64,000 nucleotides of DNA, from NCBI GenBank assembly GCA_028819235.1, contig JAPPMC010000194.1, forward strand, positions 3,913 through 67,912, in the 5' to 3' direction. A model generated the notes under the pieces. The model was given only the letters and a program-made list of their open reading frames with translations, was not told the DNA's origin and did no database searches. Source of the DNA: Bryobacterales bacterium (GTDB taxonomy: Bacteria; Acidobacteriota; Terriglobia; Bryobacterales; UBA6623). Positions within the stretch are counted from its first letter, which is position 1. Every line of letters starts with the position of its first letter. Below are positions 1 to 18,300 of this stretch, in pieces. A program made the translations under genes and the position numbers.

Positions 1-274
1 GGGCCCGCGACTTGAATATTTCTCGATAGGCGGGCCGCACGGTGCGACCTTCGAGCTGGCCCTTCACGATGCCGAGGCCCTCAGCGATCTCGTCGGGCTC
101 AACGCTCGCACAGTAGCGACCCAGCAGGAATTCGACGACGTAGGTCGGCACAGGGTACTGCCGAGCGTACTGCCGCACCAGATCCTTGCGAACCAAATAG
201 CCGGGGAAGGCCTCGTCGGCTGTGCGGTCTAGGTCGTCGAGGTGGAAGCCATCTGTGGGTACGAATTCGGTCAC
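1..274 (-). CDS. brxL: BREX Lon-like protease BrxL, N-terminal part (gene continues past the window start)
   Basis: Reverse translation from GTG at 272-274 gives VTEFVPTDGFHLDDLDRTADEAFPGYLVRKDLVRQYARQYPVPTYVVEFLLGRYCASVEPDEIAEGLGIVKGQLEGRTVRP... This matches the conserved BrxL N-terminus (F-x-G-x-VVRKDL ... VP-x-YV-x-E-[YF]-LLG-x-YCAS ... VRP). The start overlaps the pglZ stop as GTGA. It sits in the canonical position after pglZ. Confidence 0.85.
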   Translation of the reverse strand, partial: MTEFVPTDGFHLDDLDRTADEAFPGYLVRKDLVRQYARQYPVPTYVVEFLLGRYCASVEPDEIAEGLGIVKGQLEGRTVRPAYREIFKSRA

Positions 275-2613
275 GAGGTGGAGTCTCCCTTGCGGGTAGC
301 GCGTTGCGCAAGGATGCGACCGTCGGGAGCGTAGACGACAACGACGAGTGCGGCGTCTTCTTGGTCGTCAGCGGTGAGCACCAGCTTCACGACCCCGTTC
401 TCGTCAGGTGCCTTGGAGGCCAACACGACCGATTCGCCCGCAGGACCTCCCAAGCGAAGGTCGACCGTGACATCTCGCCCGCCAGCTTCAACAGTGACGC
501 TGCACCGCATCCTCGTCCAATGTACGGACTGGATCCTAGCCCGAACAGGTCCTCTTGCGCTAGCCTCAGCCTTGGCTGTCACGCGGATTTCCGGGATCAG
601 GCACTCCTGCACACTCAGGCCGCCATGCGCGTACTCCGGTCGCTTGCTGAAGCAGGCGATACCACTCGGCGAAGCAAACTCCTCGTACGTATTCCAGTGC
701 CACGGCCAACACGGCACGTCTGGCCGGGCCCTAGGAGCGAGCACGGCACACCTAGCCCATTTTGATGCCGTGAGGTGCTTCGAAAGCGGAACCATCGGGA
801 GCCCATTGGGCAGGAGCAGCCACCCGTGGTCGGTGACGATGCGGATTGACCGCCAGCCGACTTCGATGAGTCTGACTACCTGGCGGACAAGACTACGGAG
901 CTCTTGGTCGACGAGCCTCGAAAACTCCACCGAATCATGGTGGTGCCCGTGTCGGTCGATACTGCCGGCTTCCAGCCAACCGCGTGCAGTGGGCGCCGGC
1001 CTGAAATCAGGGCTTTGGTCCCCGACGACTACGTAACCCTTCTCCCTCATGGATTCACGCAGGACAGGGGCCGTAATCGGGCGGGAGGAGCCGCGCAAGA
1101 CAGGTTGGAAGTCTGCGCCAAGCTGATCGCCTGCGATCCCGCCCGCAACAGGAGTGACAGCGGGCTTGGCGGTAGCAGTCACCGTCGGGATCGCGGCCCA
1201 GCGAGGCAGAACGTCGGCATTCAGTTCGTGGTCCTCGATGCAAGTCGCGAGGCGGCGCCCCAATTCGTAGCGGAGCCCGTCGACGAAGAGGATGCACTCA
1301 TTCTCATCGGCAAGTGTTCCTACTCGTGGCTCCCTCGACGGGTGAGCACGAACGGCTCGCTGGAAGGCTTGGGCCGACTCGCGTAGCCAAGGCTCGTGCA
1401 GATGGCGAATGGCTGACTTGATGACTGCCTCATGTCCCTCAGGAGTTAGCGCGAGAGCTTCACGGGCTGCCTGGTCGGCCTGCCAGCCGCGCTCGGCGTA
1501 GACTCTCGCTATGTCGTCGGGTGTTTGGCCGCCCATGCTCTTTGCGCTTGCCTCGGCCAGACACGCAAGGGGACGGAGCACCGTCGCAAAAGGTGAGCGT
1601 CCCATCCTCGCCCAGACCCAGCGCCGACGCGACGCGTGCTCCTCTTCGAGGTTCTGGACCTTCCGGCAAGCTGCGGCGTGCGTCAGATTGGGCAACTCAG
1701 CCACAGCGTTCTGTAGGGATGCTTCCTCCTGGTCGTTGATATCGGGCCAACGATCGGGACGCTCGGGTAGGAGCACATCGCTAGATCGGCTGCGCCTGAG
1801 CACATCCGGAACCTGCTGGAAGTGGGCGGGCATCTCTTCGAAACGCGACCAGACATCGCGCCACCGACCCTGTCCTTCGGCCATCCTCCTGCCGGCCTCG
1901 ACGTCGATGCCGGTATCCGGGTCGAATCGGAGCTTTCGTTTCGCCTCGTCGCGGAAGGCATCCCAACGGTTGTCGTCCATCGAATTGCGCGTTGCTGTCG
2001 GGTCGCCCAGCCAGAGCAGCATGTCGCGCTCGACCTTGACCCCGAGGAACCGGTTGAAGTCGCTGGCATCGAGACGGCCGTGCAGATCGCTCGAAGAATC
2101 CGTGAATACCTTTTCGATCGCCCGGAGAAGCGCCGCCCTAGTTGCCCCATCGCTTGCGATGTCGAGACCGGGGCCAGCAGGTACACCGTCGGGCCCGAGC
2201 CTGAGGAATGCGCGCACATTCCAGTCGCGACCATTGGGATGATGCCAAACAACGCCCCTATACATGAGCTCAACGAGTGGACGCAGAGCTTCTGGACAGT
2301 CCTCTCCCGCACGAAGCTGTCCACGCTTCACGCCCGGCAAGTAGATGATGGGAGGATGATCGGCCGGGACGTACGGGGAGTCGATCGTACGGTCCACCAT
2401 GCACCGCAGCCAAATGGCGGGCCCCGTGCGGTCGTCGGGGTGGAACTCGCCTAGGACGAGCAACTCGGGGATGTGGGAACGGGCAATGGGGATCAATCCA
2501 TCCCACTCGCGTCGGTAATCTGGCCAGAGAATGGCGCAGGGCGACACCCGGTCCCCAGACACGCCGGCTTTGGCGCGGATGGCGGCGGCGAAGAGGTCGA
2601 GAGGCGTAGTCAC
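271..2613 (-). CDS. pglZ: BREX alkaline-phosphatase-superfamily protein PglZ
   Basis: 780-aa ORF. N-terminus ILWPDYRREWDGLIP is PglZ-like. The PglZ domain motifs FVDGLRYELGRRL and VTDHGWLL are present. It lies between pglX and brxL. Confidence 0.9.
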   Translation of the reverse strand: MTTPLDLFAAAIRAKAGVSGDRVSPCAILWPDYRREWDGLIPIARSHIPELLVLGEFHPDDRTGPAIWLRCMVDRTIDSPYVPADHPPIIYLPGVKRGQLRAGEDCPEALRPLVELMYRGVVWHHPNGRDWNVRAFLRLGPDGVPAGPGLDIASDGATRAALLRAIEKVFTDSSSDLHGRLDASDFNRFLGVKVERDMLLWLGDPTATRNSMDDNRWDAFRDEAKRKLRFDPDTGIDVEAGRRMAEGQGRWRDVWSRFEEMPAHFQQVPDVLRRSRSSDVLLPERPDRWPDINDQEEASLQNAVAELPNLTHAAACRKVQNLEEEHASRRRWVWARMGRSPFATVLRPLACLAEASAKSMGGQTPDDIARVYAERGWQADQAAREALALTPEGHEAVIKSAIRHLHEPWLRESAQAFQRAVRAHPSREPRVGTLADENECILFVDGLRYELGRRLATCIEDHELNADVLPRWAAIPTVTATAKPAVTPVAGGIAGDQLGADFQPVLRGSSRPITAPVLRESMREKGYVVVGDQSPDFRPAPTARGWLEAGSIDRHGHHHDSVEFSRLVDQELRSLVRQVVRLIEVGWRSIRIVTDHGWLLLPNGLPMVPLSKHLTASKWARCAVLAPRARPDVPCWPWHWNTYEEFASPSGIACFSKRPEYAHGGLSVQECLIPEIRVTAKAEASARGPVRARIQSVHWTRMRCSVTVEAGGRDVTVDLRLGGPAGESVVLASKAPDENGVVKLVLTADDQEDAALVVVVYAPDGRILAQRATRKGDSTS

Positions 2614-2732
2614 TTTGCCCGGTGTTCTCGGAGAAAATGTACCAAGAAATGTCTCATGGTCATTTATTGGTACATTTCGGGTGGCGAAATGTCCGAAGTT
2701 GGGCAGCTTCGGTACATTTATCGATCCCCTAC

Positions 2733-4445
2733 CTAAGCCTGCAAGGGGCCAGTGTAGACGTACCTTGCCCCTCTCCCGTGGCCTTCGATCCGCACGTGAC
2801 CCTCGTCTGCCAACTCGTGCATCAGTCGGTTCACCCGCCTCCTGTCCAACAAGGTGATCTCGCGCACATCCGCATTGGCAGGAGGCGGCTCGCCTCGGAC
2901 CGCGCGTGTCCTAAGCGCCTCTAGGATCCGCAGCTTCGCGGTTTCTCGGTCGACCTTGCCCGATGCAACGCTGGAGAGTCTCGCACGCGTTTCCAAGTTT
3001 AGGGTCCAGTAGCGCTCGGACTGTGAGCCTCCCCGCTTCAGGTAGCCCATCTCTGTCTCCATCGACACGAGAAGAGAACGTGCCTCCGGTTCCCGACGGT
3101 GGCAGAGACGGGCCGCAAAGCCTGCATCGATCTCTGTCTCGTTCAGCAGGTGTGTTAGGACAAGCAGATGATCCGCCGCAAGCGCAACTCCTCTTGCCGC
3201 CTCGTTTGCTACGAACGTACGCATTGGGACGGAAACCTCGGCGGCTCGAAACGTCACCCGCACCGAATCACCCTCATCCACGATCAGGGGAGCTGGCTTC
3301 CCCTCCGTCAGGAGAGAAGAGAAGATGCGCTCCATCCCAAGGTTGCTGCGGTTGACCAGACGCAGTCGCATCAGAGCGGCAACCAAGCAGGGGTTCCGAC
3401 TGACAGGCTGGTGGTGTAGGATGTTGTCGGGAGTAATACCGCCAACGAATCCTCCTGGGCTGCTGATCTCGATTCGGTCGGAGTATTGCTTGACCAATCG
3501 AGGGCTGCCTCTGCGGAAGTCTCCGTGGCAGAATGCGTTCAGGAGCGCTTCGCGGAGCGCGATCTCAGGATAGGTACGGTACTCGAAGTGATGGAGTCCC
3601 TGCCGAACGGTCTCAATGGGGTTGTCAGCCATGATCAGGTCGACGATGCGGTCCAACGATACTGTGATCGCTTGGCGTCCGTCGTCGCGGTCGGAATAGT
3701 CGGTGGGCGAAACCATGCGGAGGTGTGTCCACGCAAAGTTTGGGATGTGTTGTCGAATGGATTGAGGTGACCCAGCCAAGAGGACGGCGGCTCGGGTGGG
3801 ACGCCCCTCGCGCACGACACCGATCGCTTCAAGCAGGTCGGTATCGTTTAGGCGGACCATGTCCGAGGGTGCCCGTTCGAGCCGAGAAGCGACCCGGAGT
3901 GACTCCATGGCCACCGGGGAGACAATCCGTGGCAGGGGCTCATCGACCATGGCAGATGTAAAGTCGTTGTCGCCGAACTGATCGAGCAGTCTGCGCCGGA
4001 CGGTCCCAGTGAGGGGCTTGCAGTCCTTTCCGATGCGTACCGTTCCACGACCCGCAGTGTCGGTGTAGGGTGGCATTCCGGGGTGAACGTGCATCAGGAT
4101 CAGCCGCCTCGTACCTTCTGGGACTGAGACTTCCTCGAAGACGGGCGTCAGACGCGGATCGGTGCCATCGTAGACGCCTAGCATCAACCGATTGACGGAA
4201 ACGTGGTGCGGAACTCCTACGACGGCGTGGCCACGGCCAACCACCTTGTCCCGTACGCCGAAGACGACTGTTCCGCCTCCTCCGTTTGCCATGCACACTG
4301 CTGCGGAGACCGCCAGCCGGACAGACTGGTGATCGCTTCGGGCGTCCCATTCCTTGAAATCGAGTCTCTGATCCTCTAGCGCGTCCGCGGGCTCACGGTC
4401 GAGCTCGTCCAGGAGTCTCACGACGTCGTAGCGGGACATGGGCAT
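2733..4445 (-). CDS. AlbA_2 (Schlafen-like) + HATPase_c_4 + C-terminal wHTH protein; putative DNA-binding, ATP-binding regulator or effector embedded in the BREX locus
   Basis: AlbA_2-type motif: EDQRLDFKEW...AAVCMANGGGGTVVFGVRDK. HATPase_c_4-type motif: LREALLNAFCHGDF...YSDRIEISSPGGF...SRNPCLVAALMRLRLVNRSNLGMERIF. The C-terminus LDRRRVNRLMHELADEGHVRIEGHGRGARYVY looks like a wHTH. I chose ATG 4445 (MPMSRYDVV...) because the longer ORF to 4730 would overlap pglX and its extension is Arg/Pro-rich junk. Confidence 0.75.
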   Translation of the reverse strand: MPMSRYDVVRLLDELDREPADALEDQRLDFKEWDARSDHQSVRLAVSAAVCMANGGGGTVVFGVRDKVVGRGHAVVGVPHHVSVNRLMLGVYDGTDPRLTPVFEEVSVPEGTRRLILMHVHPGMPPYTDTAGRGTVRIGKDCKPLTGTVRRRLLDQFGDNDFTSAMVDEPLPRIVSPVAMESLRVASRLERAPSDMVRLNDTDLLEAIGVVREGRPTRAAVLLAGSPQSIRQHIPNFAWTHLRMVSPTDYSDRDDGRQAITVSLDRIVDLIMADNPIETVRQGLHHFEYRTYPEIALREALLNAFCHGDFRRGSPRLVKQYSDRIEISSPGGFVGGITPDNILHHQPVSRNPCLVAALMRLRLVNRSNLGMERIFSSLLTEGKPAPLIVDEGDSVRVTFRAAEVSVPMRTFVANEAARGVALAADHLLVLTHLLNETEIDAGFAARLCHRREPEARSLLVSMETEMGYLKRGGSQSERYWTLNLETRARLSSVASGKVDRETAKLRILEALRTRAVRGEPPPANADVREITLLDRRRVNRLMHELADEGHVRIEGHGRGARYVYTGPLQA

Positions 4446-4668
4446 GTGCTTCAGGCTTCCGGGTCCAAAACAAGCCCGCGATGGAACGATTGGGTCAGAA
4501 TGCCAACGGCTTGGCAATGAGCCCACTCCCGGCGCGATGCGGGGAAGAACGCGTTGTCCTGTCGCAACCGATGGCATTTTGTGAAGCGTTTCGCGCCTCG
4601 TCCGAATAGAGAATGCTCGCGCTCGACCAAGATTCGCGAATCGTGACTTGCACGGCCAGTGGGTCCCG

Positions 4669-7600
4669 TCACGCGATCCCCGCCATCTGCCGGGCCTCGC
4701 GCTTCGCCGATCGCGTGTAGTGCAGGTCATTCCAGCGGTTCCCGTCGAACTTTGCGTCCTCTGACGCCATGTAGTCCGTCCGCGTGTCGGCGTTGGCCGT
4801 GCCGGGACACCGCCAGAACCACGGATATTCTTCGCGCGACCGCGGTTCCTGCGGTTCGTTCCCGCGGTCCTTGCCCCACTTGACGGTTGGCTTCCAGCGC
4901 AGAATCCCGGCCCCAGCGCGTCCGCCCTTTCGCAGCCGGGCGCGCATGAAGGGACGTATGTTCAGCCGCACGCCGTCGTCGAGGTCGGGCACCCACCCGA
5001 TCGCTTGCGCGTGTAAAGGTTTCCAGCGCACGAACAGGTCGAGACGAGGCTCGCCTTCCAAGATGCGTTCGAGTTGCTGTTGCAGGTCGAGCGCGTGCGC
5101 AAGGCGGGCGTCGGCCCCGGCTGTGCCATCGCCTTGGCCAACGCGCTGCCGGTGGATCCAGTCGTTCAGGTAGGCGTATGTGAGTGTTTCAAGTGTTCGC
5201 CTCCCTTCGCCTCCGGGACCCGCGAGTCTGTGGTAGTTGACTAGCGCGTGGAAGCCGTCCTTCCGCCCGTCCCAGACGTGCCAAATGAATGGGCGGTTCT
5301 GGAAGAGCTTGCAGTGCTCCGCGAAGAAGCGGTCCGCAAGCCAGACTTCAAGCGAAGGGGGCGACTTTCTGTTCGGGGTGTTGGCCTCCAGCAGTCGGCG
5401 CTCGGTGGCTGTGGACCACTCGTCACCGTAGGCACAGATGAGTAAGGCGCGCAGGCGGTCGGCGGCGCTCACCTCGCCCCTGGCGGGCGAGAGACAGACG
5501 ATGCCATCGGAGTCGGCGAAGTCGTCATAGGCGTCGCAGCGCTTGACGAGGGCGCGTTGCTCGGGAGCCAAGCGCATTGCGGGATCGAGTTCGGCGGGCC
5601 AGCGATACCCGAGTAGACGAGCGACTGCGACATGAAGAACGGTGCCATCGAATCGGAAGGCACCGCTTGCAGTCCGCTTGGCGTCTTCGTCCCAGACGAC
5701 GGTCCGGCACGGATCTCCGTGGAAGATCCACTGAGTGGGATCGTTGGAGTAGGGCTCGGGGAGACCATTGGGATAGCGCTCGAAGGCCACCTTAGTCCAA
5801 TGGTCGAGGTCAAAGGGAACCTTTACGAGGGTGGCGGCCGTGATCTTCAGTGCCTGATCAATCTTCCGGAGTGTCGTTTGGTGCTCTCCAGATTCACAGA
5901 AGCACAGAATCGCGGAGATGTGCGATTTGGTTCTTGGAGCTAGGACACCCGCGTTGTCGTCGAAGGCCTCACCACCATAGGCATACGGCGTCAAAGTTCC
6001 GGTCTTCCTGACGGCTACGCCGTCCCGTCCCATGACACTCTGACCGTGGAGCCTGCATCCCCGCATGGATCGCAGCTCAGGATCGTCGAGTGGAACCTTG
6101 AGGAGCAATGATCGTCCAGTCCACAGCGATCGCGTATCCTCACTGGGGGAGTCGAGCCACGGCACAGAGTCGACCGTTGGACGCTCTAGCTCCCAAAACT
6201 CGAGGAGAAACCGAGGACGATCCCCCGTAGTACTGCCCTTACCGTAATCGGCAATCGCCGACAGAGGCGGATAGTCTTCAAGTGGCTCCAAGAGAACGCG
6301 GGAATCCGGATTCCTGAGCTGCCCCGCTTGGCGCGATGGCACAACCTCTGACCCATGCCCCAATAGCCGAGCCTTCTCCACGGCCCGAATCGGCCGCTGT
6401 CCACGTGGTGCCGACACGTCCAGCCCCACCATCATTTGTCTGGGCGCGGGCCGCCCCGCCGACAGAATTATCAGCGCAACGTTGACGACCTCACCACTGA
6501 TCGTCTCGAACGCACCCGGCCCCAACCGCGCCACCACGTTCCACGTCCGTTGACTCAGCAGCCGTTCCCGCAACTTCCGATAGGTCTTCAGAAAGAGCCA
6601 GTTCTGGGGCGTAACCAGCGCTTGTGTGCCGCGGTCACCCAGCCAGCTAAAGATCCGCGAGAGGAAGACTGTCGCGATATCCCCCTTCGCGTCTCCATGG
6701 TTAGTCTCGGCGAAGTTGCGGAGTCCGCCACTCTGCTTGCCCCGCGCCAAGAAGGGGACATTGGTGACGACCAATGTGAATCGGCCCGCTAGGATCTCGG
6801 CCGCGCGCGCCATTCCGGCCGCCGCAACCGCGCGTTCGTTTCGACCTCGAACTTTCTGTTTTCGTCCGACCACCGCTGTGAGCAGCTTCTTCAGGTCGTC
6901 GTAGCCCGCGTGGTAGAGGTCGGCCTTGACGGCTTCCGGGGCGATCAGCGATCCTAACTCGCGCGCTTGGCTAAAGAGGCGGTACAATCGGCGCATTCCA
7001 TCACGCATTGGTCTGCGTCCAAGCGTCTCTTCGGCACTCAAGAGAAATCGTTTGGGATTCTCGGCAACCTCTGAAGCACTCTCGAGATCGTCCGCGAGCC
7101 TGATCCAACCGTCCTCTCTCCCCTCGGGCGCGATACCGCAGCACGCGATGTTTAACTCGGGAAGCTCGATCTGCTCGTCGGCCATCCGCCACGCGGTGAG
7201 TGCAAGATTGAAGGCTGCGATCTGTGTGCAACGTGGATCGAGCTCTAGGCCGAAGAGGTTGTCTTGGAGCACTGCGAGGACGGCCTTCGTGGGCGCAAGT
7301 CCCTCCTCCTCAATGCGAAGTCGCACTATGAGCTCAAAGGTTTCAACCAGAAAGTGACCACTCCCACAGCACGGATCTAGAATCCTAAGCTCGCGCACCT
7401 CACGGGGCCAATCCGCGAACGTTCCTGCAGCCGGACGCCAAGGGCCTGACCGCTTGTCGCCCTCGTCTCCCTCCGCCTCGGTTCGTATGAAGCGCAAGTA
7501 GGTGAAGTCGTATCCGCCTCCAGTTCCGAGCCGCATCCGCTTCCGCAGCGCAATCTCGTCTGGGGCCGAGGTTGCGAGCGCGGGGTCGCCGGCCAGCACC

Positions 7601-11458: not shown

Positions 11459-11639
11459 GTCAATTCCGGGAGAATGCGGGTGCGAAACTCGAAGTCCCTA
11501 TTGTCAGGACCGAACTGAGACCAATGCAATGTGGGCGCTGCAGAAAGTAGGACAGCCGTCTTCTCAGACCAGAAGTCAAGATCACAAAGCCGGGTCGATC
11601 CCTAGGACACAGTGACACTCCAGAATACTGAGGTCAGCA

Positions 11640-12015
11640 CGACAGCCCTATAGCTGGAAAGAATGCTATGCACTGCACAGGACGAATATAACATTTCAGC
11701 CCAAGCGAGTACAAGGAATTGTGCCGGAGGAGAAACAGAGTTCCGGGCAACGAACATGGCGGAAGGTGCCTCTGGGCCCAATCTTGCGTATTCGTGACGA
11801 GTAGCGAGCCTGCCCCCGTCTTTGCGTCTGACCGAGATGGAACCTGTTGGCTGTGCCCTAGTGAGAGCATTCGATGCGAGGAGTCTCTCAGAAGCGTTCC
11901 GCCTTCTAACCGTCCGCTTGAATCATCGGAGACAACCGTCCATTCCCTGACGCACGGCAGCCTTGGCGTCGGCACTGTGAACCGGTTGCTCCATGTAGAT
12001 CGCGACGCCCTTCAC
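11640..12015 (-). pseudogene. Possible decayed remnant of a DUF4276-like partner gene downstream of the AAA_21-like ATPase
   Basis: A GTG at 12013-12015 overlaps the ATPase stop (GTGA) and opens VKGVAIYMEQPVHSADAKAAVRQGMDGCLR*, ending at the stop at 11923. From memory, DUF4276 N-termini look like x-I-Y-V-E-G-G-G-D-S...L...CR-x-GF. A shifted frame further on reads GSLLVTNTQDWAQRHL (compare LLVDSE...W.HL). This is tentative. Confidence 0.25.
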
Positions 12016-13192
12016 GGGTTTGCCCCTAGCTCTCCCATCCGCCAAACGTCCCCGAGACGGTAGTCGTAAAGCCACCCGGCCAGCCGCTGTGGATCCAAAC
12101 GTCGTAGCTTCGTCGATGCGCCGGGTCGCTCACAAATGACGATAACGGCTGGCAGATCGGTCAATGCGGAAACCAGGGCATCGGAGTGCGTGGTCACCAA
12201 TAGTTGCGTCCGGTGTGATGCCTCGACGAAGATCTCGGCCAACAGCGGCAAGGCATCCGGGTGAAGCCCCAGTTCCGGATTCTCAATGCAGAGCAGAGGT
12301 GGCGGTGCAGGCGAGAGCAGAGCCGCCAGCAGTGCCACGAACCTCTTCGTGCCGTCCGAGAGGCGGGTCGCGGGGATGGGCGCTTTGAAGCCGTGCTCGA
12401 AGAAACAGAGCTGCGCCGAGCCACCGCAAACTCGGATGGACATGCGTTCGAACCTAGGAAAGAACTGCTTCAGCAGGGTATTGACACGTTCTTCGCCCGA
12501 GTGCCTCATCTGGTTGAGAACCATGTTCAGATTGCTGCCATCCGGAAGCAGCCGGTCTTCGGGAAGGTCAGCTCTCTGCGGATCGCGGGTAGGTGTGTGA
12601 CGCCCGACGGTCCACTCGTCAAACATCAGGATGCTGGAGAACGTCTGCCGGATCTCGGTGACCTCTGGATGCTGATCCAGATCCTTGCGCTGCGCGAGTA
12701 CGGACTGATCTGATGGCAGGGTTTGCCGCTCAATAGCTCTCTCATGCCTTTCGGCTCCAACGGTCCGTACGCTGGTGACTGGGTGTCCGCGATGGTGGTG
12801 GCAGTAGAGACAGGCGCCATCAACGTCGTCGCGGCTCGGGCCTCGTTCGGCCTCCTCAACCACTTCGTCGAGGATTTCCAACCGTCTGTGAACAGACGCA
12901 AAGCTCAGTCGGTACCTAATGAATTGGCCGTTGTTGCGTTCCAAGACGGTCTCGATCTCGGCGGAGTCCGCTGGGGGGTGCCCTTCCACAGCCACTCAAG
13001 GGATCCGCCTCCCTTCCGTACAGCCGCATCTAAGTCGTTCGGAGTCGCCGCCAGCAGGCCGAACGCCTCGAGCAGATTCGACTTCCCCGCTGCGTTCGGG
13101 CCGATCAGCACATTCAATGACCGCAACTCGAACGGGTCGGATCCCGGTGCAAATGACAGGAAACCGTCAAGACGGATTGATCGGAACCTCAT
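12012..13192 (-). pseudogene. AAA_21/AAA_15-type (RecF/SMC-like) ATPase, reading frame broken in a C6 tract
   Basis: N-terminal frame (from ATG 13192): MRFRSIRLDGFLSF...LNVLIGPNAAGKSNLLEA (Walker A)...SLEWLWKG. The C-terminal frame (ORF 12012-12995) continues ADSAEIETVLE...ATRLSDGTKRFVALLAALLSP (signature-like)...PLLCIENPELGLHPD (Walker B)...LVTTHSD. The frames switch at G6 on the plus strand (C6 coding), 12973-12978. One extra C would join them into about 393 aa. Confidence 0.8.
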
Positions 13193-13328
13193 CGAAGTGC
13201 TCCCCTCGTCGTTTACCGCACCCATGCCGCCGCGGCGCAGTCATCCGTGTCCTGCAGCGGTATGCGTCCTTCGCCATGCACCCCAGGATTCCTGATCCCG
13301 AGAGTTGCCGACCATGTGCAATTCGCTC

Positions 13329-16300
13329 CTATTCCAGGATCACGGGGCCTGTGCGGACTGCGGCCATGAGCTGCCTCTCGTGTTCGGCGAGCCACTTCCG
13401 TACGGCCTTCTCGTCGTCTAATGTCCCTCGCCTCAAACGGACGAGTTTAACTCTGCCATCTGGGCCGGGCCCCCTCTTTGCAGCCTCGGCCAACGCCCTG
13501 CTCTCGCGAACCGGTACGGCGTCGATTTGGGACCGCCACGCGGCCAGCCCGCGCACGTTGAGTTCCGCCCGGAGATTCTCGTTCGTCCCTACTCGAAGCT
13601 CCCGAGGCGAGGTGAGACCAACCTTCCGCAGAATCCCTGCCTGATCACGGGCACTTACCTTCCGCCAAGTGGAATCGTTAGCGAGCCGTTCGGTCGCGGT
13701 CTTCACAGTGGACGCCAGCTGGTCGTGCAATTTGCTGAGCTCCTGTCGCAGAGCATTTGCTAAGCGAGTCACGCATGGCCGAACGTGGTTGGTGTCGTCG
13801 AGCAGAGAGCGCTGGTTTCGGATAGCGGATAGCTGTTCGCCAACCTCCGCGGCGACCTTCGTGAGATCTCCCTCGGCATGTCTGTGGAGCCTGTTGGCCA
13901 ACTCCCAGACCTGCACGCGGTTTCTGGCGCGCTCACCGAGCCTCTTCCAATCCTCCACTGACTGCTCAAGCCGCTCTCTTTCCTTGAGAATCTCGGCCAA
14001 TTGCTCATTCCCCGCCAACCCGGACAGGTCCATGAGGAACGTCGTCTCCGGCACGGGCGGCAACGGGGAATTCCCGCCGGCACTGTGTGCCAGTTCACGG
14101 CAGGCCTTTAGGAAGTCGGGTGCCTTCGCGGCTTCCTCGCCGCGCCTGACCGAGAGACGTGCAAGGTCCCTGAAGAGCCCACGGATCCGGAGCCGTTGTG
14201 GGGTCGTCAGCCGAACCTTCTCGGGAAGGAAGTGGGCCGTGCGGATTGTCTGCTGCGTTAGGTGTCCCGCCCGCACGGGCAAACCATTGCGCTCCGCCTT
14301 GAGGTGGTCATCCTTGACCAACCCCGCGAGCGAGGCGTGGATCGCATCTTGGGGCCATCCGTAGGGGACGGTGGTCAGCGCGTCCTGCACCTGCTTCCCT
14401 CTGGTTCCCGCTCCGACCTTCAGCAGCACTTCCTTCGCGACCGGATGGTCCGTCAAATCCCCTTCCCACCCGACCACGTCGAAGGGCGTTCCAGCCCCTT
14501 CCCGGATGCGCTTGAAAGCGGTGGCCCATCGCCGATGGTCGCCTTCGCCGAATCGCGGGAAGAGCCGCGCGAGCGACGACTTAGCACCGGACGAGACTTT
14601 CGAACCCAAACTTTCGCCGTACTCCTCCCCGCCTCCACCCCGGAAAACCCGGGCCGCACGCACGATCTCTTCGACGATCCGGTCCATCGCGGCCTCGGCA
14701 CTCTCGAGACGACTGCGCATGCCCTCCATCGCAACCTGCCCTTCCTGCGAAGCGGGCACGCCACGCGATTCCAGCACCTTCCGGGCAGCCTCAGCGCTCT
14801 CGATGTGGCCGCGAAGGTCCTGGGCACCGCGCTTCGGCAGGTAGACATGCAGGAGGGCGTCTTCCAGTCCACGCTTGCTCGCCTCGGCGAGAACTGTCGC
14901 CACAGTGCACGACCATCCATCGCGCACCCAGACACAGACGGAATCGTCGGCACACCGGCGCTGCTCCCCTGCGTCCGGCTTGTCCATGCCGAAGTGCGGT
15001 GTCAGCGTGCGCGGCACCTTAGACTCTCCTTGAAGGAGGCGAATTCCCCTGAGTTCCCGCAGAACGGCACTGCTCACCGCGTTGTCAAGACGCGATGCAA
15101 TCTCCACCTCGCTCCGTCGCAGCCGTGTCCGTTCCTCCCGAAACGCCCTCTCCCACTCGGCGCCTTCTCGCGTCTGGATGCGATACTCGTCGCCAATCTT
15201 CATCAGGACGCCTTCGTCGCCGAGCGCCTCCAGCGTCCGCGCGACTCCGTTTCGGAATCTCCCAGAATCCAACCTGATGTCGGCTAGGAGAAGATCGGCC
15301 AGCGTGGTCGCATCGGCGCGCACGCCGCTGTCCGCTCCCCCCTCCCGGGGCAGCTTGCCGATCAGAAAGACCACACCGCAGAGGTCAGCCTTCAACCTGC
15401 CGCCCTCTGTGCCATCGTCGAGCTTCCGGATCCGGGTGTTGATCTCATTCAGCAATACGCTAGAACCGACCAGATCCTGGGCCAAGGCGCGGAATAGGTC
15501 GCTCGCGGGAATCACGCAGCCGACCGGTCGTTTGGCTATCCCGTGCAACGAATCGTGAAGGATGCGGAGTTGCGACCGAAGCTGACTCCTGGTACCGGAC
15601 GGGTCGGTGGTCTGAAAGCACGCCTCCCAAAAGCGCCGACGGGTGCGCAGGAGGGGATAGTCCCCCACATCAAGCCGTTTGTCCTCCGCTCTCACGGCGA
15701 GCCGAGTGGCTTGCAGGTGACGCGACACTTCTCCCGCGTGCCGCTCGAGTATGCCGTGGACCGCCGGCGCGGCAGACGGCTTCTTCCTTAGCAGCACGTC
15801 ACGCGTCACGGCTTCGACCTCGGCGTCGGCGAGCTGCACGGTGACACGGAAACGATCCGTGAGCCACGCAAGCGCAGCGTTACCGCCCGCTAGCGCTGAC
15901 TGGCCCGACGCAACCAGCAGCACCCGGCTGTCCAACTGCGATTGCAACGCTTCGGCGAGCTCCGTCACGATCTGCGCGCGGTCTCCGGCTTCGTTGATGT
16001 ACTGCTGAACTTCGTCGAGCACGACGACAGTGGGCGGAATCGGTCCGCCGTCGGGAGCCAATACCTCCCTAGCCGTATCAATGAACTGCTTTGTGCTGAG
16101 GTCGGACTTCAGTAGCGGAAACTGCTGCACAAGAAGTTGCCGCGCTCTGATCACATCCGCCGCGAATCCAGGTACGGCCGTCAGCACTGCCTCCGCGATC
16201 ACCGGGCTGACGTAGAGGTTGTTCAGCTCACCCTCCCACGACTTGCCGGCCTCTTCGACGCTGCCACGCACATCGTCCAGCAGCCCTTCGCCGCGCAACC

Positions 16301-16823
16301 AGAGGCAGAACCGTGCCTGCGCGTACTGTTCGGGGAGTCCGGCAGCCCGGAGCACGATCGAGAGCACAGACAGGCGCACATGGCCTACGTTGCCTCCAAG
16401 AAGCGATCCTGCGGCAGCCACTGGTTTGCAGCCGAGCCGCCGACACCGCATGTCGAGTTCTCGTAACGCGTCGCGAACGGTCGTAGGAAGTCGGTCGGCT
16501 ACGAGGCCACGCGCCGTCTGGCCGTCATCGAACGGGGTATTCACCCAGAGATGCGCGAGCATCTTCAGAAGGTGCGACTTTCCGCTACCGAAGAAGCCGC
16601 TTACCCAGACGGCGTCTTGGCGTGAAGATTCGAAGTTTGTGAGATATCGCTCTAGGATCCGCTCTAGGGCGTCTGCGAACTGGCCCTTGCAGACGAAGGT
16701 CTCCAGTTCGGCGCGCAGCTCCTGCATGACCCGCTCGTCCCGCCCGTGAGTGATCCGGGCTTGGCCGTTGTTCGCAAGGCTGGTAGACAACGGGTCGCGA
16801 TCAAGAACCTCGTGAATCTTCAT
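13329..16823 (-). CDS. brxC: BREX P-loop ATPase BrxC/PglY
   Basis: About 1165 aa. P-loop GFFGSGKSHLLKML lies about 85 aa from the N-terminus, and size and position are typical of BrxC. I chose ATG 16823 (MKIHEVLDRDPL), 5 nt after the brxB stop; the alternative is ATG 16841. Confidence 0.9.
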   Translation of the reverse strand: MKIHEVLDRDPLSTSLANNGQARITHGRDERVMQELRAELETFVCKGQFADALERILERYLTNFESSRQDAVWVSGFFGSGKSHLLKMLAHLWVNTPFDDGQTARGLVADRLPTTVRDALRELDMRCRRLGCKPVAAAGSLLGGNVGHVRLSVLSIVLRAAGLPEQYAQARFCLWLRGEGLLDDVRGSVEEAGKSWEGELNNLYVSPVIAEAVLTAVPGFAADVIRARQLLVQQFPLLKSDLSTKQFIDTAREVLAPDGGPIPPTVVVLDEVQQYINEAGDRAQIVTELAEALQSQLDSRVLLVASGQSALAGGNAALAWLTDRFRVTVQLADAEVEAVTRDVLLRKKPSAAPAVHGILERHAGEVSRHLQATRLAVRAEDKRLDVGDYPLLRTRRRFWEACFQTTDPSGTRSQLRSQLRILHDSLHGIAKRPVGCVIPASDLFRALAQDLVGSSVLLNEINTRIRKLDDGTEGGRLKADLCGVVFLIGKLPREGGADSGVRADATTLADLLLADIRLDSGRFRNGVARTLEALGDEGVLMKIGDEYRIQTREGAEWERAFREERTRLRRSEVEIASRLDNAVSSAVLRELRGIRLLQGESKVPRTLTPHFGMDKPDAGEQRRCADDSVCVWVRDGWSCTVATVLAEASKRGLEDALLHVYLPKRGAQDLRGHIESAEAARKVLESRGVPASQEGQVAMEGMRSRLESAEAAMDRIVEEIVRAARVFRGGGGEEYGESLGSKVSSGAKSSLARLFPRFGEGDHRRWATAFKRIREGAGTPFDVVGWEGDLTDHPVAKEVLLKVGAGTRGKQVQDALTTVPYGWPQDAIHASLAGLVKDDHLKAERNGLPVRAGHLTQQTIRTAHFLPEKVRLTTPQRLRIRGLFRDLARLSVRRGEEAAKAPDFLKACRELAHSAGGNSPLPPVPETTFLMDLSGLAGNEQLAEILKERERLEQSVEDWKRLGERARNRVQVWELANRLHRHAEGDLTKVAAEVGEQLSAIRNQRSLLDDTNHVRPCVTRLANALRQELSKLHDQLASTVKTATERLANDSTWRKVSARDQAGILRKVGLTSPRELRVGTNENLRAELNVRGLAAWRSQIDAVPVRESRALAEAAKRGPGPDGRVKLVRLRRGTLDDEKAVRKWLAEHERQLMAAVRTGPVILE

Positions 16824-16828
16824 GCTTG

Positions 16829-17383
16829 TCAAGGAATCCACTCCCCATGTAGCGTGATAGGCTGCGCCAAGTAGCTCCAGCCATCCCGCGCATCCAGAAG
16901 CCGGTAGTTGTTGTCGTTCTTCGTGCCCGGAAAGAACACGGCCAGACGGCCGCGGATCTGGGACTCGACCGATTGAATGAGGTCAGAGACGTGAATGAAC
17001 CCATAGAGGGAGGCCGTGCCGAATAGAGCCACTACGGAGTTGTCATCCGCGATGTCGAGCGCATCCTTGAGCCGCTCCGCCGCGAACTCACGGAAATCGC
17101 TCTGAAGCGCGCCTTCGAGCAGCTCGGGCTCCTCAAAGTACGCGTCCCGGTACTCGTGGCTCCCCATCCACTCGGCGAACCAGCGGGTGGCGTCTGCTTG
17201 CACCCACCCATGCCCTTCGTCGCGCGTCGCCTGCTCGAACTCTTCGATCCGAGCACGCAGGTCGCGCTCGCGTTCCTTCTTGTAGACCACCATCATCACC
17301 CGCTCCGCTCCCGCAAGAGTGGGCGGCCAAGGGGCACCTATGTGATGCCTATAGATTCTTGACAGTTCGCTGACTTGATTCAA
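16829..17383 (-). CDS. brxB: BREX protein BrxB (DUF1788)
   Basis: DUF1788-like sequence: ...IGAPWPPTLAGAERVMMVVYKKERERDLRARIEEFEQATRDEGHGW ... FFPGTKNDNNYRLLDARDGWSYLAQPI. The likely TTG start at 17383 overlaps the brxA stop as TTGA; the longer ORF to 17473 overlaps brxA. Confidence 0.85.
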   Translation of the reverse strand: MNQVSELSRIYRHHIGAPWPPTLAGAERVMMVVYKKERERDLRARIEEFEQATRDEGHGWVQADATRWFAEWMGSHEYRDAYFEEPELLEGALQSDFREFAAERLKDALDIADDNSVVALFGTASLYGFIHVSDLIQSVESQIRGRLAVFFPGTKNDNNYRLLDARDGWSYLAQPITLHGEWIP

Positions 17384-18300
17384 GGTTGGAATTCCGGATC
17401 CAAGGCTAGCGCGGACGCTTCGACCACGTTTCCGGCGGCACGAAGGCGTATTAGTCCCAATCGGCTGGCGCAAGTCGCGTAGTCGAGCATCGCGCCTCCG
17501 CGTACATCGAGCACTGCCGCCCAGCGCGAGTCGATCAGGCGATGGCCCGCCAGCCCCTCCGCCTCACCCAGCCAGAGTGCCAGCGAGACCGCCGCCGGGG
17601 TCGGCGAGATCAAGCGCCGGAACTTGCGCATTCGGCCTTCGAGGTGGCCCGACTGCGTCCACGAAGTCGCAGCATTGATCGCTATCTTGTTGAGCGTGGC
17701 GTCGTTGAAGCGCGGACCCGTCTGATCCCGGATCCAATTAGCGAGCTCCGTCCGCACGAGTTCCTCCCCGATCGACAGCGCCAGCACGGGCCCCGCCGTT
17801 AGCCGGAGAAGCGGATCGCGGGCAAGCGCCGTGAGGATTCCCAGCAGGGCGCGGCCGCCGGAATCCGCAGGCTCGAACGCCCACAGGCGTCGCAGCACAC
17901 GGAAGAGGGGCACTTCGGGATCAAGCGCATAGAGCTGAGTCAAACACTGACCGGTGGTCAGCCGCGTGCTGCGGGTCGACTTTGCAAGGAGGTTCTCCTG
18001 TACGATCGCGGTCCTGTAGTCGGCGCGGGACGCGCTCGCAGGGAGCGCGTCGAGGAGCTCTGAGAGCTCCCGCAGCATGATGGACCTTGAACTCTGGGTA
18101 CCACGCGCGCCGAAACGGAAGCCTGCGCGTTCGAGAGCCGCAGTGCGGCGAACGGACAAATCGGCAGCGGACCCGAGGCTCAATCTCCCGCTCACCCCCT
18201 GCCGAAAGCCGACCTCCGGGGATCCGGTAGGCCCCGCCGTTCGCCGGTCCGCGGGGCGAAGAGAGTCGGCTGAATGTCCCTCTTGGGCGATTCCGGTCAT
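17380..18300 (-). CDS. brxA: BREX protein BrxA (DUF1819)
   Basis: The core MLRELSELLDALPASASRADYRTAIVQENLLAKSTRSTR resembles BrxA (MLRET...IVEENLLQKRS). It is the first gene of the brxABC block. The true start is probably internal, because the ORF has a roughly 60-75-aa Arg/Gly-rich N-terminal extension. Confidence 0.75.
   Translation of the reverse strand: MTGIAQEGHSADSLRPADRRTAGPTGSPEVGFRQGVSGRLSLGSAADLSVRRTAALERAGFRFGARGTQSSRSIMLRELSELLDALPASASRADYRTAIVQENLLAKSTRSTRLTTGQCLTQLYALDPEVPLFRVLRRLWAFEPADSGGRALLGILTALARDPLLRLTAGPVLALSIGEELVRTELANWIRDQTGPRFNDATLNKIAINAATSWTQSGHLEGRMRKFRRLISPTPAAVSLALWLGEAEGLAGHRLIDSRWAAVLDVRGGAMLDYATCASRLGLIRLRAAGNVVEASALALDPEFQP

What the first reader, a model, noticed from the sequence alone, without database searches (positions are those of the whole stretch)
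1..18300. Type 1 BREX locus split open by accessory genes at two internal junctions
All six type 1 BREX genes can be read on the minus strand in canonical order (brxA, brxB, brxC, pglX, pglZ, brxL). Translational-coupling overlaps are present: TTGA at 17380-17383 and GTGA at 271-274. However, brxC and pglX are separated by about 5 kb holding two unrelated ATPase genes, one of them broken, plus long non-coding gaps. pglX and pglZ are separated by an AlbA_2/HATPase_c_4 gene. BREX loci are known to host nested defence genes. This particular combination (RloC/PrrC-like + AAA_21-like + Schlafen-like AlbA_2) inside one BREX operon is not an arrangement I know to be characterised. I recognised no BrxR-type regulator upstream.
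Basis: partly seen in the sequence, partly recalled or inferred. Interest (0 to 1): 0.65.

Follow-up and report, generated by a model that had tools for sequence, protein, structure and literature searches.

The report
BREX operon hosting nested defence genes
A type 1 BREX anti-phage operon from a sponge-associated bacterium carries extra defence genes at two internal junctions, which is a published habit of BREX loci; one newcomer landed inside an older, now dead insert, and a Schlafen-type gene is followed by what look like its own DNA-binding sites.

Summary
[quoted passage not shown] Profile HMMs confirm each one, and the claimed start/stop overlaps are there. brxL is cut by the window edge but is called at 691 aa on the source contig.

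The "non-coding gaps" are not empty:
- **brxC|pglX junction:** it once held a HEC-01 pair, an ABC ATPase plus a DUF4276/TOPRIM protein. The ATPase now has a 1-nt deletion. The TOPRIM gene is split by a 3.3-kb block that carries a low-GC gene meeting all the sequence criteria of RloC. A 71-75% identical locus has the intact pair and no RloC.
- **pglX|pglZ junction:** it holds an intact prokaryotic Schlafen-GHKL-double-wHTH gene.

In 80 related loci both junctions vary. AlbA_2-type genes occupy the second junction in 25 of 69 loci.

Embedding of these families in BREX is already published (Payne 2024, Went 2024, NAR 2026), so this is a new member of a known kind.

One point I did not find described. 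Just after the Schlafen gene sits a phased array of AATG-core sites. The base after AATG tracks one recognition-helix residue of the last wHTH in 16 loci, and two predictions made before fetching the loci held (one fully, one for the first base only).

The parts
1..274 (-). brxL, first 91 codons only (cut by the window start). Its GTG start overlaps the pglZ stop (GTGA 274->271).
   Evidence: Pfam BrxL_N 5.3e-19 and PADLOC BrxL 1.1e-26. Called at 691 aa with BrxL_ATPase on the source contig.
271..2613 (-). pglZ, 780 aa, intact.
   Evidence: PADLOC PglZ 2.9e-238 over profile 15-773 of 774. NCBIfam BREX-1 PglZ type B, 763 bits against a cut-off of 400.
2635..2719 (.). Array of AATG-core half-sites between the Schlafen gene stop and the pglZ start. 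It has three exact AAATGTACC copies (2635+, 2669-, 2711-) and three degenerate copies, with neighbouring sites 12 bp apart.
   Evidence: The same layout occurs 3' of homologous genes in at least 12 other loci. The base after AATG follows a recognition-helix residue.
2733..4445 (-). Prokaryotic Schlafen gene, 570 aa. Domains: AlbA_2/Slfn nuclease with an Ex4DxK motif, a GHKL-like HATPase_c_4, and two C-terminal winged-helix domains. Intact.
   Evidence: Pfam SLFN_AlbA_2 1.2e-13 and HATPase_c_4 2.3e-18. E24-x4-D29-x-K31 is nearly invariant in 43 homologues. AlphaFold pLDDT 86 with two wHTH at residues 424-482 and 500-564. Foldseek hits: 3LMM, SLFN11/13/5 N-domains, MarR.
4669..8370 (-). pglX methyltransferase, intact (1233-aa maximal ORF; 1216 aa in the source gene call).
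   Evidence: PADLOC PglX E=0 over profile 4-1122 of 1125. Pfam Eco57I, N6_Mtase and MmeI_Mtase.
8363..8601 (-). 3' remnants of HEC-01B (DUF4276/TOPRIM-like). HMM positions 112-137 and 160-212 are present, with a frameshift, an internal deletion of about 58 nt and in-frame stops.
   Evidence: hmmsearch with a profile built from 5 HEC-01B homologues. tblastn. DNA alignment to L085.
8602..11874 (-). Inserted block of about 3.27 kb that replaces about 54 codons of HEC-01B. It contains the RloC-like gene, with about 416 nt of 5' flank and about 595 nt of 3' flank that have no recognisable coding.
   Evidence: GC is 0.42-0.52 across 9100-11700, against about 0.62 around it. The block is absent from L085, where 471 bp stand in its place. 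No hits were found for the flanks.
9197..11458 (-). RloC-family anticodon-nuclease gene (PADLOC PDC-S06, Pfam AAA_13), 753 aa, intact.
   Evidence: AAA_13 8.7e-148. PDC-S06 1e-237 over profile 2-737 of 740. Invariant Walker A, CxxC (C276/C279), LSEGE, Walker B and R661-x3-E665-x39-S704-H705, matching the RloC definition in PMC2610378. Homologues are named 'wobble nucleotide-excising tRNase'.
11875..12042 (-). 5' remnant of HEC-01B (HMM positions 2-57) with an in-frame stop. It overlaps the HEC-01A stop, as in intact pairs.
12012..13192 (-). HEC-01A (AAA_21 / OLD-type ABC ATPase) pseudogene. A 1-nt deletion near 12980 separates the Walker-A part (13192->~12980, GPNAAGKSN) from the 327-aa ORF at 12995->12012.
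   Evidence: PADLOC HEC-01A 2.2e-108, with the profile starting only at position 75 of 393. The N-terminus lies in another frame. The single-base gap is seen against the intact L085 gene. A second assembly gives the same sequence.
13329..16841 (-). brxC, 1170 aa, intact. Walker A GFFGSGKSH.
   Evidence: PADLOC BrxC E=0 over profile 1-1145 of 1146. NCBIfam BREX_BrxC 647 bits against a cut-off of 400.
16829..17383 (-). brxB, 184 aa from TTG at 17383. It overlaps the brxA stop (TTGA) and the brxC start.
   Evidence: PADLOC BrxB 2.4e-68 over profile 3-181 of 184. The overlaps were read directly. BrxB is 184 aa in L086 and L094.
17380..18300 (-). brxA. The ORF runs to 18300. The profile match starts at ORF residue 52, so the true start is probably near 18150.
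   Evidence: PADLOC BrxA 7.9e-84 over profile 4-246 of 259. The source gene call is 232 aa.

Best explanation
This is an intact type 1 (PglZ type B) BREX operon. Its two internal junctions, brxC|pglX and pglX|pglZ, act as landing sites for second-line defence cassettes. The locus records at least three successive acquisitions.

1. A HEC-01 pair was embedded between brxC and pglX. It consists of an OLD-type ABC ATPase and a DUF4276/TOPRIM nuclease, and is PARIS-like in architecture.
2. A foreign, low-GC block carrying an RloC-family anticodon nuclease later inserted into the TOPRIM gene. HEC-01 has since decayed, with a 1-nt deletion in the ATPase and stops and deletions in the TOPRIM remnants.
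3. A Schlafen-GHKL-2xwHTH gene sits between pglX and pglZ, with its own 3' array of AATG-core sites.

Shown: the anatomy, the intactness of the genes, the insertion relative to a close relative, the variability of both junctions, and the catalytic motifs.

Inferred from characterised relatives: BREX gives first-line, methylation-based exclusion. RloC and the Schlafen protein are latent tRNases that shut down translation when infection proceeds or BREX is blocked. This is by analogy with PrrC released when EcoprrI is inhibited, PARIS triggered by Ocr, RloC responding to DNA damage, and pSlfn proteins cleaving tRNA. Tight overlaps (brxA/B/C, pglZ/brxL) and a single shared strand suggest co-transcription, with the inserts riding on BREX transcription.
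For: BREX identity and integrity.

Nested insertion:
- HEC-01B profile positions 2-57 lie at 12042->11875, and positions 112-212 at 8601->8363.
- L085 is collinear with the window at 71-75% nucleotide identity. It has an intact 391-aa HEC-01A and an intact HEC-01B (249 bits, profile positions 1-216). Only 471 bp stand where the window has about 3.5 kb.
- GC drops to 0.42-0.52 over 9100-11700.
- The 1-nt deletion in HEC-01A was located against L085.
- A second assembly of the same run is identical.

RloC criteria are met. The Schlafen motif and fold are confirmed, using the motif definition.

Junction variability: 41 of 72 loci have inserts of 0.13-9.3 kb at the first junction, and 50 of 69 have gaps of 0.2-9.1 kb at the second. 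The cargo includes HEC-01, Dsr1, ThsB-TIR, PDC-M28, PDC-M38/AbiL, RmrA-like and DRT-nitrilase families.

Close homologues of the Schlafen gene also lie in or beside BREX or type I RM loci; one of those sampled (L093) does not. An RloC homologue lies inside a type I RM locus.

Literature on embedding and backup defence.
Against: - There are no expression or functional data; no RNA run holds the stretch.
- HEC-01 gave no defence in the only published test.
- RloC is reported as only rarely linked to R-M loci, so functional coupling to BREX is an analogy.
- No target-site duplication, terminal repeats or recombinase explain how the RloC block entered.
- Intergenic gaps of 224 and 119 bp around the Schlafen gene, and more than 800 bp before pglX, could break the operon into separate transcripts.
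- The sigma-70 and terminator scans were uninformative.
Confidence: 0.72

Rival explanations
1. The junctions are merely permissive sites. Insertions there do not kill BREX, so mobile defence genes pile up. The cargo works, or decays, independently of BREX, with no sensing or regulatory link.
For: The cargo at the same junctions is very heterogeneous across 80 loci. HEC-01 has been allowed to decay here. The same Schlafen subfamily and RloC relatives also occur in type I RM loci and in non-BREX islands.
Against: AlbA_2-type genes occupy the pglX|pglZ junction in 25 of 69 loci. Most sampled close homologues sit in or beside BREX-type or type I RM loci; one does not. Several start 3-8 nt after the upstream BREX gene or overlap its end, which implies co-expression. 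The literature reports recurrent, non-incidental linkage.
Confidence: 0.25
2. The Schlafen-GHKL-wHTH protein is mainly an in-operon transcription regulator of the distal BREX genes (pglZ-brxL here). It would stand in for the missing BrxR, rather than act as a suicide tRNase.
For: It has two C-terminal wHTH domains. A phased array of sites lies directly before the next BREX gene in many loci. Site sequence covaries with a recognition-helix residue. No BrxR lies upstream.
Against: The nuclease motif Ex4DxK is nearly invariant in the family, so the RNase is under selection. The array follows the gene in non-BREX contexts as well, so it is a feature of the cassette rather than of BREX. The two roles are not exclusive.
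Confidence: 0.3
3. The BREX system is itself on the way out. The insertions are polar and have uncoupled pglX and pglZ-brxL from the brxA promoter, so the locus is a decaying island.
For: Two pseudogenes lie inside it. Long untranslated stretches precede pglX. Some relatives have pglX split into two ORFs.
Against: All five complete BREX ORFs in the window are full length against their profiles, with motifs intact. brxL is called full length on the contig. Relatives with larger inserts also keep all genes.
Confidence: 0.1
4. The low-GC block is a metagenome assembly chimera.
For: There is a sharp GC change, and only one sample holds the contig.
Against: The block is flanked on both sides by the two halves of the same gene, in the same orientation. 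A chimeric join would not return to that gene. An independent assembly gives the identical sequence with no joints.
Confidence: 0.03

Closest known systems
Salmonella Typhimurium D23580/LT2 BREX (StySA) island with embedded PARIS (ariA/ariB)
   Same: It is a type 1 BREX with an OLD-type ABC ATPase + TOPRIM pair nested inside the operon, transcribed from the brxA promoter (PMC11341690).
   Different: Here the ATPase/TOPRIM pair is HEC-01 (DUF4276), not AriAB, and it is dead. Two further cassettes, RloC and pSlfn, are present.
EcoprrI-PrrC, and RloC (Davidov & Kaufmann 2008)
   Same: It is an anticodon nuclease with an ABC ATPase head embedded in a methylation-based defence locus. The window protein meets the RloC sequence definition: size, CX2C, and R-x3-E-x36-52-(S)H.
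   Different: The host locus is BREX, not type I R-M. RloC was reported as rarely R-M-linked. Best homologues are only 54% identical. Activity is untested.
PADLOC 'guilt-by-embedding' families HEC-01 and PDC-S06 (Payne et al. 2024 preprint)
   Same: Both ATPase genes match these models nearly end to end. [quoted passage not shown]
   Different: This locus shows one embedded family inserted into another. HEC-01 was inactive in their assay and is a pseudogene here.
BREX-associated Schlafen + minimal His-kinase + wHTH proteins (NAR 2026, PMC12839542); pSlfn HisKinase-HTH class (Nat Microbiol 2026, PMC13056530)
   Same: Same domain architecture and same linkage to BREX core loci. The Ex4(E/D)xK motif is present.
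   Different: My term searches of those two papers found no cis-element or DNA target. The characterised pSlfn proteins have Ig-like or DUF262 sensors, not GHKL-wHTH.
pEFER BREX with BrxU, and BrxR (WYL) regulators
   Same: An accessory defence gene sits inside a type 1 BREX locus, and the system is controlled by a DNA-binding protein.
   Different: No GmrSD and no WYL protein are present here. If any in-locus regulator exists, it is the wHTH part of the Schlafen protein.

Membership tests
BREX type 1 | brxA, brxB, brxC, pglX, pglZ and brxL in this order on one strand | tested here: met
   PADLOC, Pfam and NCBIfam hits for all six, in order, on the minus strand. Overlapping start/stop codons at three junctions.
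BREX type 1 | PglZ of the BREX-1 type, above the curated cut-off | tested here: met
   NF033450 BREX_PglZ_1_B, 763 bits against a cut-off of 400.
BREX type 1 | PglX N6-adenine methyltransferase, full length | tested here: met
   PADLOC PDLC02528 E=0 over profile 4-1122 of 1125. Pfam Eco57I and N6_Mtase. DPCCGSGHF and NVPF motifs seen in the translation. NCBIfam BREX_1_MTaseX reaches only 314 bits against a cut-off of 500, so it belongs to a divergent clade of PglX.
BREX type 1 | Complete BrxL (Lon-like) | tested here: inconclusive
   Only 91 codons are in the window (BrxL_N). The source contig has a 691-aa gene call with BrxL_N and BrxL_ATPase, but I did not read that sequence.
BREX type 1 | Site-specific methylation and phage exclusion | not testable with these tools
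   No long-read or functional data are available.
RloC anticodon nuclease | ABC ATPase motifs (Walker A, signature, Walker B/D-loop, switch His) | tested here: met
   GWNGxGKTT, LSEGE, VLDDP-SSLD and THN are invariant in 19 homologues.
RloC anticodon nuclease | CX2C zinc hook in a helical insert that splits the ATPase head | tested here: met
   C276 and C279 are invariant and lie between Walker A (residues 36-44) and the signature motif (507-511). The coiled coil itself was not computed.
RloC anticodon nuclease | C-terminal Arg-X3-Glu-X36-52-His triad, often with Ser before His; size 658-897 aa | tested here: met
   R661, E665, S704 and H705 are all invariant, with a 39-residue spacing. The protein is 753 aa.
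RloC anticodon nuclease | Excision of the tRNA wobble nucleotide | not testable with these tools
   This needs a biochemical assay.
HEC-01 (ABC ATPase + TOPRIM/DUF4276) | Intact HEC-01A and HEC-01B genes side by side | tested here: not met
   Both are recognisable (2.2e-108 for A; remnants at 33 and 27.5 bits for B). A has a 1-nt deletion. B is split by 3.27 kb and carries stops. They are relics, not a working system.
Prokaryotic Schlafen, HisKinase-HTH class | Slfn/AlbA_2 domain with Ex4(E/D)xK | tested here: met
   SLFN_AlbA_2 1.2e-13. E24-DQRL-D29-F-K31 is nearly invariant in 43 homologues.
Prokaryotic Schlafen, HisKinase-HTH class | GHKL/His-kinase-like domain followed by HTH | tested here: met
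   HATPase_c_4 2.3e-18. The model has two wHTH domains. Foldseek hits MarR, SelB wHTH and PDK/BCKDK kinases, plus the full-length structure 3LMM.
Prokaryotic Schlafen, HisKinase-HTH class | tRNA cleavage and phage defence | not testable with these tools
BrxR-type (WYL) regulator upstream of brxA | A WYL/HTH gene next to brxA | tested here: not met
   No Pfam hit for any ORF of at least 110 aa in 17.9-18.8 kb. The upstream neighbours are M1 and M48 peptidases.

The most novel reading that the evidence does not exclude
The roughly 572-aa Schlafen-GHKL-2xwHTH proteins embedded in BREX and type I RM loci may bind a phased array of AATG-core half-sites through the recognition helix of their last winged helix. 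The sites come in pairs 12 bp apart, typically ordered <-<- ->-> <-<-. The array sits immediately 3' of the protein's own gene and 5' of the next gene of the host system.

The cassette would thus bring its own operator. The protein would be a locus-tethered sensor/regulator that gates the distal BREX genes (here pglZ-brxL), or is held inactive on DNA, in addition to being a tRNase.

Support:
- The helix residue in ...V-x-R... predicts the base after AATG in 14 of 14 loci that fall in the four classes seen more than once: N->T, R->CG, K->G, F->CT. Two further loci have singleton residues: V with T and Y with CG (16 loci in all).
- Two predictions were made before the loci were fetched. The F-class one held for both bases (CT). 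The K-class one held for G only.
Probability: 0.4. Interest if true: 0.6.

Novelty: new member of a known kind. Interest (0 to 1): 0.38.

Why it matters
As a BREX locus with embedded defence genes it adds one well-resolved example to a phenomenon already catalogued at scale. It shows two things clearly.

- **Turnover inside the operon.** A newer abortive-infection gene (RloC) inserted into, and outlived, an older one (HEC-01), while the BREX frame stayed intact. A close relative preserves the earlier state.
- **Both internal junctions are hot spots.** In this PglZ-type-B clade, more than half of the related loci carry cargo at each junction.

The more useful lead is the AATG array behind the Schlafen gene. 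If the wHTH domains bind it, this would give the most common uncharacterised class of bacterial Schlafen proteins a concrete DNA target. It would also give a simple recognition code that can be tested by swapping residues, and a possible mechanism for how an embedded cassette talks to its host defence operon.

Tried and rejected
- **Rfam** (gathering threshold) on 1-24 kb: no hit. No tRNA lies near the locus.
- **Repeat search** on 8200-13400 for target-site duplications or terminal inverted repeats around the RloC block: only short, chance-level matches. No recombinase or transposase is in the block.
- **Flanks of the block and other spacers** (8602-9196, 11459-11874 and others): tblastx and blastn against the 80 loci and the window found nothing. 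Their ORFs have no Pfam or NCBIfam hits.
- **Sigma-70 promoter and terminator scans:** counts were at the shuffle level, so they are uninformative.
- **Metagenome scan with the Schlafen protein:** only 3 loci. The viral-contig scan found none.
- **RNA-seq runs:** none could be listed, so co-transcription could not be tested.
- **RNA-hairpin reading of the array.** The window and L085 fold well (z = -3.7). However, the linker of the stem is mismatched in L086, and in L088 the arms are not complementary in hairpin register. L007 has mostly same-strand repeats about 21-22 bp apart. I therefore rejected this in favour of protein-binding sites.
- **Other readings of the array.** I considered integron attC-like and dif-like sites, because the element lies 3' of the cassette and some half-sites resemble TGCGCATAA. 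No GTTRRRY/RYYYAAC cores are present and the spacing does not fit dif. These are not supported.
- **Source taxon.** Assigning the locus to Acidobacteriota is not supported by the nearest BREX relatives. I did not determine the host taxon independently.

Full report
**1. What is in the sequence**

ORF listing and profile searches show a minus-strand gene row.
- brxA: ORF 17380-18300, PADLOC 7.9e-84.
- brxB: 16829-17383, PADLOC 2.4e-68.
- brxC: 13329-16841, PADLOC E=0, NCBIfam 647 bits against a cut-off of 400.
- pglX: 4669-8370, PADLOC E=0.
- pglZ: 271-2613, NCBIfam 'BREX-1 PglZ type B', 763 bits against a cut-off of 400.
- brxL: the first 91 codons, 2-274, BrxL_N.

GTGA lies at 274->271 and TTGA at 17383->17380. 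The brxB/brxC junction has a further TTGA at 16832->16829.

brxL is cut by the window start. The source contig is a 79.6-kb scaffold of a sponge metagenome. It has a 691-aa gene call there with BrxL_N and BrxL_ATPase.

Upstream of brxA lie M1 and M48 peptidase genes. No ORF there has a Pfam match, so no BrxR-type regulator is present.

**2. The junction between brxC and pglX**

The anatomy is more specific than that.

*HEC-01A.* The 327-aa AAA_21 ORF (12012-12995) matches PADLOC HEC-01A at 2.2e-108, but only from profile position 75. The missing N-terminus, with the Walker A motif GPNAAGKSN, lies just upstream in another frame, starting at an ATG at 13192. Alignment with the intact gene of a close relative places a single-base deletion near 12980.

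*HEC-01B.* In related loci HEC-01A is followed by a gene of about 218 aa. That gene is Pfam DUF4276 and PADLOC HEC-01B (3.2e-61). A profile built from five of these finds its pieces in the window:
- positions 2-57 at 12042->11875;
- positions 112-137 at 8601->8524;
- positions 160-212 at 8527->8363.

The pieces carry a frameshift, in-frame stops and an internal deletion of about 58 nt.

*The inserted block.* Between the two halves lie 3.27 kb (8602-11874). GC falls to 0.42-0.52 over 9100-11700, against about 0.62 around it. The block carries one intact gene, 9197-11458.

*The earlier state.* Locus L085 comes from a 7-Mb genome. It is collinear with the window at 71-75% nucleotide identity from brxC to brxL. 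It has an intact 391-aa HEC-01A and an intact HEC-01B (249 bits over profile positions 1-216). It has 471 bp where the window has about 3.5 kb. The block is therefore an insertion into HEC-01B, which is itself embedded in BREX.

*Reliability.* An independent assembly of the same run is identical across 8200-13400. The block is also flanked by two halves of one gene. Both points argue against a chimera.

*Open point.* I found no target duplication, terminal repeats or recombinase. How the block entered is unknown.

**3. The inserted gene is an RloC**

It matches Pfam AAA_13 end to end (8.7e-148) and PADLOC PDC-S06 (1e-237). Several homologues carry the IMG name 'wobble nucleotide-excising tRNase'.

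Against the published definition of RloC (PMC2610378) it has:
- the ABC ATPase motifs;
- an invariant CxxC at 276-279, between Walker A and the signature motif;
- R661-x3-E665-x39-S704-H705;
- a size of 753 aa.

The best homologues are only 54% identical, so no donor can be named. One homologue sits between hsdS and hsdR of a type I R-M locus. Another sits next to an IS3 transposase on a conjugative element. Activity is inferred, not shown.

**4. The junction between pglX and pglZ**

The gene at 2733-4445 (570 aa; the longer ORF is an artefact of an upstream in-frame start) has SLFN_AlbA_2 and HATPase_c_4 domains. The Schlafen catalytic motif Ex4(E/D)xK is present as E24-DQRL-D29-F-K31. It is nearly invariant in 43 homologues.

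An AlphaFold model (pLDDT 86) shows two C-terminal winged-helix domains. Foldseek finds the uncharacterised full-length structure 3LMM, the N-domains of SLFN11, SLFN13 and SLFN5, MarR regulators and GHKL kinases.

The family is large and well conserved. At least 1,467 proteins score E<=1e-20, many of them 56-64% identical across phyla.

**5. Relatives**

I anchored on PglX and fetched 80 loci. The junction gaps are as follows.

| Junction | Loci scored | Compact | Remainder |
|---|---|---|---|
| brxC\|pglX | 72 | 31 (<50 bp) | 41, gaps of 0.13-9.3 kb |
| pglX\|pglZ | 69 | 19 (<150 bp) | 50, gaps of 0.2-9.1 kb |

The cargo is a catalogue of defence genes: HEC-01A/B, Dsr1-like SIR2, 8xMP + ThsB-TIR, PDC-M28B/C, PDC-M38A/AbiL, RmrA-like HTH-M78, DRT-nitrilase fragments, and a TrlF/Ppl-like ATPase.

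AlbA_2-related genes are the commonest occupant of the second junction, in 25 of 69 loci, and occur at the first junction in 3. HEC-01A homologues are at the first junction in 13 loci and at the second in 2. No other locus has the RloC.

Eight close homologues of the Schlafen protein were looked up in their own contigs. They lie:
- between pglX and pglZ of type 1 BREX (3);
- directly after a DUF6079-type BrxC and before an N6_N4 methyltransferase, with PglZ on the one locus that extends far enough (2);
- just upstream of a PglX-like methyltransferase gene and a PglY-type BrxC gene (1);
- before a type I hsdM (1);
- in a non-BREX helicase island (1).

The Schlafen gene is nevertheless a recurrent companion of BREX rather than a random passenger.

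**6. What is already known**

- Payne et al. [quoted passage not shown] HEC-01 is an ABC ATPase plus TOPRIM pair that gave no protection in their assay.
- Went et al. (PMC11341690) found genes between BREX components in about 7,000 of about 9,000 genomes where pglZ and pglX co-localise. They also studied PARIS embedded in Salmonella BREX.
[quoted passage not shown] It reports OLD-ABC-linked nucleases in at least 1,242 taxa. It interprets both as backup effectors.
- pSlfn proteins with other sensor domains cleave tRNA and protect against phage (PMC13056530).

The phenomenon and each family are therefore published. The particular combination, and the insertion of one embedded gene into another, are new instances.

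**7. Mechanism**

*Shown:*
- The six BREX genes are present and apparently intact.
- Two cassettes are intact (RloC and pSlfn) and one is dead (HEC-01).
- The order of events at the first junction is known.

*Inferred:*
- BREX acts first, by methylation-based exclusion.
- RloC and pSlfn are latent tRNases that stop translation if infection proceeds or BREX is inhibited.
- These inferences rest on analogy with PrrC/EcoprrI, PARIS/Ocr and characterised pSlfn proteins.
- RloC may have taken over the role of the decayed HEC-01 pair.
- Co-transcription is suggested by the shared strand and the overlaps. It could not be tested, because no RNA run could be listed.

**8. An unplanned finding**

The 119-bp spacer between the Schlafen stop and the pglZ start holds three exact copies of AAATGTACC and three degenerate copies.

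*The same element recurs elsewhere.* The 200 nt after the stop codon of every close homologue examined are rich in AATG/CATT cores. In the first 11 distinct loci the count of WATG/CATW is 3-13, and 10 of the 11 have 6 or more. In random 200-nt segments of the same loci the count is 1.39 +/- 1.53, with a 95th percentile of 4. Five loci fetched later show the same.

*The layout is conserved.* Pairs of sites lie 12 bp apart, typically ordered <-<- ->-> <-<-. This holds from Gemmatimonadota-like to Bacillota loci, and in BREX type 1, BREX type 3-like, type I RM and non-BREX contexts. AlbA_2 paralogues of other subfamilies on the same contigs lack the array.

*RNA hairpin is unlikely.* In L088 the arms are not complementary in hairpin register, and in L086 the linker is mismatched. 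An RNA hairpin is therefore a poorer explanation than protein-binding sites.

*The sites track the protein.* The bases after AATG differ between loci. They follow one residue of the predicted recognition helix of the last wHTH (...V-x-R...), as shown below.

| Helix residue | Bases after AATG | Loci |
|---|---|---|
| N | T | 5 of 5 |
| R | CG | 4 of 4 |
| K | G | 3 of 3 |
| F | CT | 2 of 2 |
| V | T | 1 (singleton) |
| Y | CG | 1 (singleton) |

Two of these loci were fetched after the prediction was written down. P0101 (K class) was predicted to show GC and gave G with a variable second base. P0047 (F class) was predicted to show CT and gave CT at three sites.

*Caveat.* Relatedness of the cassettes inflates such an association, so this is a lead and not a proof. 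I did not find it described in my term searches of the two papers read on these proteins.

**9. Verdict**

The locus is a new member of a known kind. It is of modest interest as a clean record of turnover inside a BREX operon. The possible operator of the BREX-associated Schlafen proteins is a more interesting side lead.

Noticed in passing
window 2635-2719; also L085:10741-10830, L086:10729-10815, L088:8753-8845, L090:10720-10815, L092:10723-10810, L093:10010-10070, L097:7726-7850, L099:1913-1965, L023:19226-19430: A phased array of AATG-core half-sites lies directly 3' of the ~572-aa Schlafen-GHKL-2xwHTH genes. The bases after AATG follow one recognition-helix residue of the last wHTH (N->T, R->CG, K->G, F->CT). 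Two predictions made before fetching held, one fully and one for the first base only.
   Followed up: yes
L010:15381-15640: This locus has two different arrays behind its Schlafen gene. AATGCGCG sites lie next to the gene and match its R-type helix. AATGTATC sites lie nearer pglZ. This may be the footprint of an earlier cassette that was replaced.
   Followed up: no
L085:5129-8777 and L086:5371-8995 (compare window 4669-8370): In the two closest relatives pglX is called as two ORFs (764 aa plus 461 or 436 aa), split at the same place. PADLOC has separate models for the two halves (PDLC02535, PDLC02534). The window has one fused ORF.
   Followed up: no
window 5859-6365 (PglX residues ~668-837): This is the only part of the BREX row that does not align at DNA level with L085. 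It is a divergent segment inside pglX at the place where the relatives' gene is split. It may be a swapped target-recognition region and hence a different BREX motif.
   Followed up: no
L012, L017, L027, L029, L035, L049, L051, L060, L067 (between pglX and pglZ): A recurrent two-gene cassette is present. An 880-960-aa TrlF-family/Ppl-like ABC ATPase (NCBIfam TrlF_fam_ATP 4.6e-98) is always followed by an AlbA_2-related gene that ends just before pglZ.
   Followed up: partly
window 8602-9196 and 11459-11874: The flanks of the RloC gene inside the inserted block have no recognisable coding, repeats or homologues. The 3' flank has host-like GC (~0.6), unlike the gene itself.
   Followed up: partly
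L001, L003, L008: The closest PglX relatives (63-76% identity) show no brxA, brxB or brxC within 10 kb upstream of pglX. Either they carry very large inserts or they are partial BREX loci.
   Followed up: no
window 57255-57351: ARAGORN calls a 97-nt tRNA-Trp with the anticodon at position 40. That is unusually long for a bacterial tRNA.
   Followed up: no
window 4446-4668: The 224-bp spacer before the Schlafen gene holds three AATG cores of another type (two AATGCCA, one AATGAGCC). This could be a second, different site set. The same spacer length occurs in L085.
   Followed up: no
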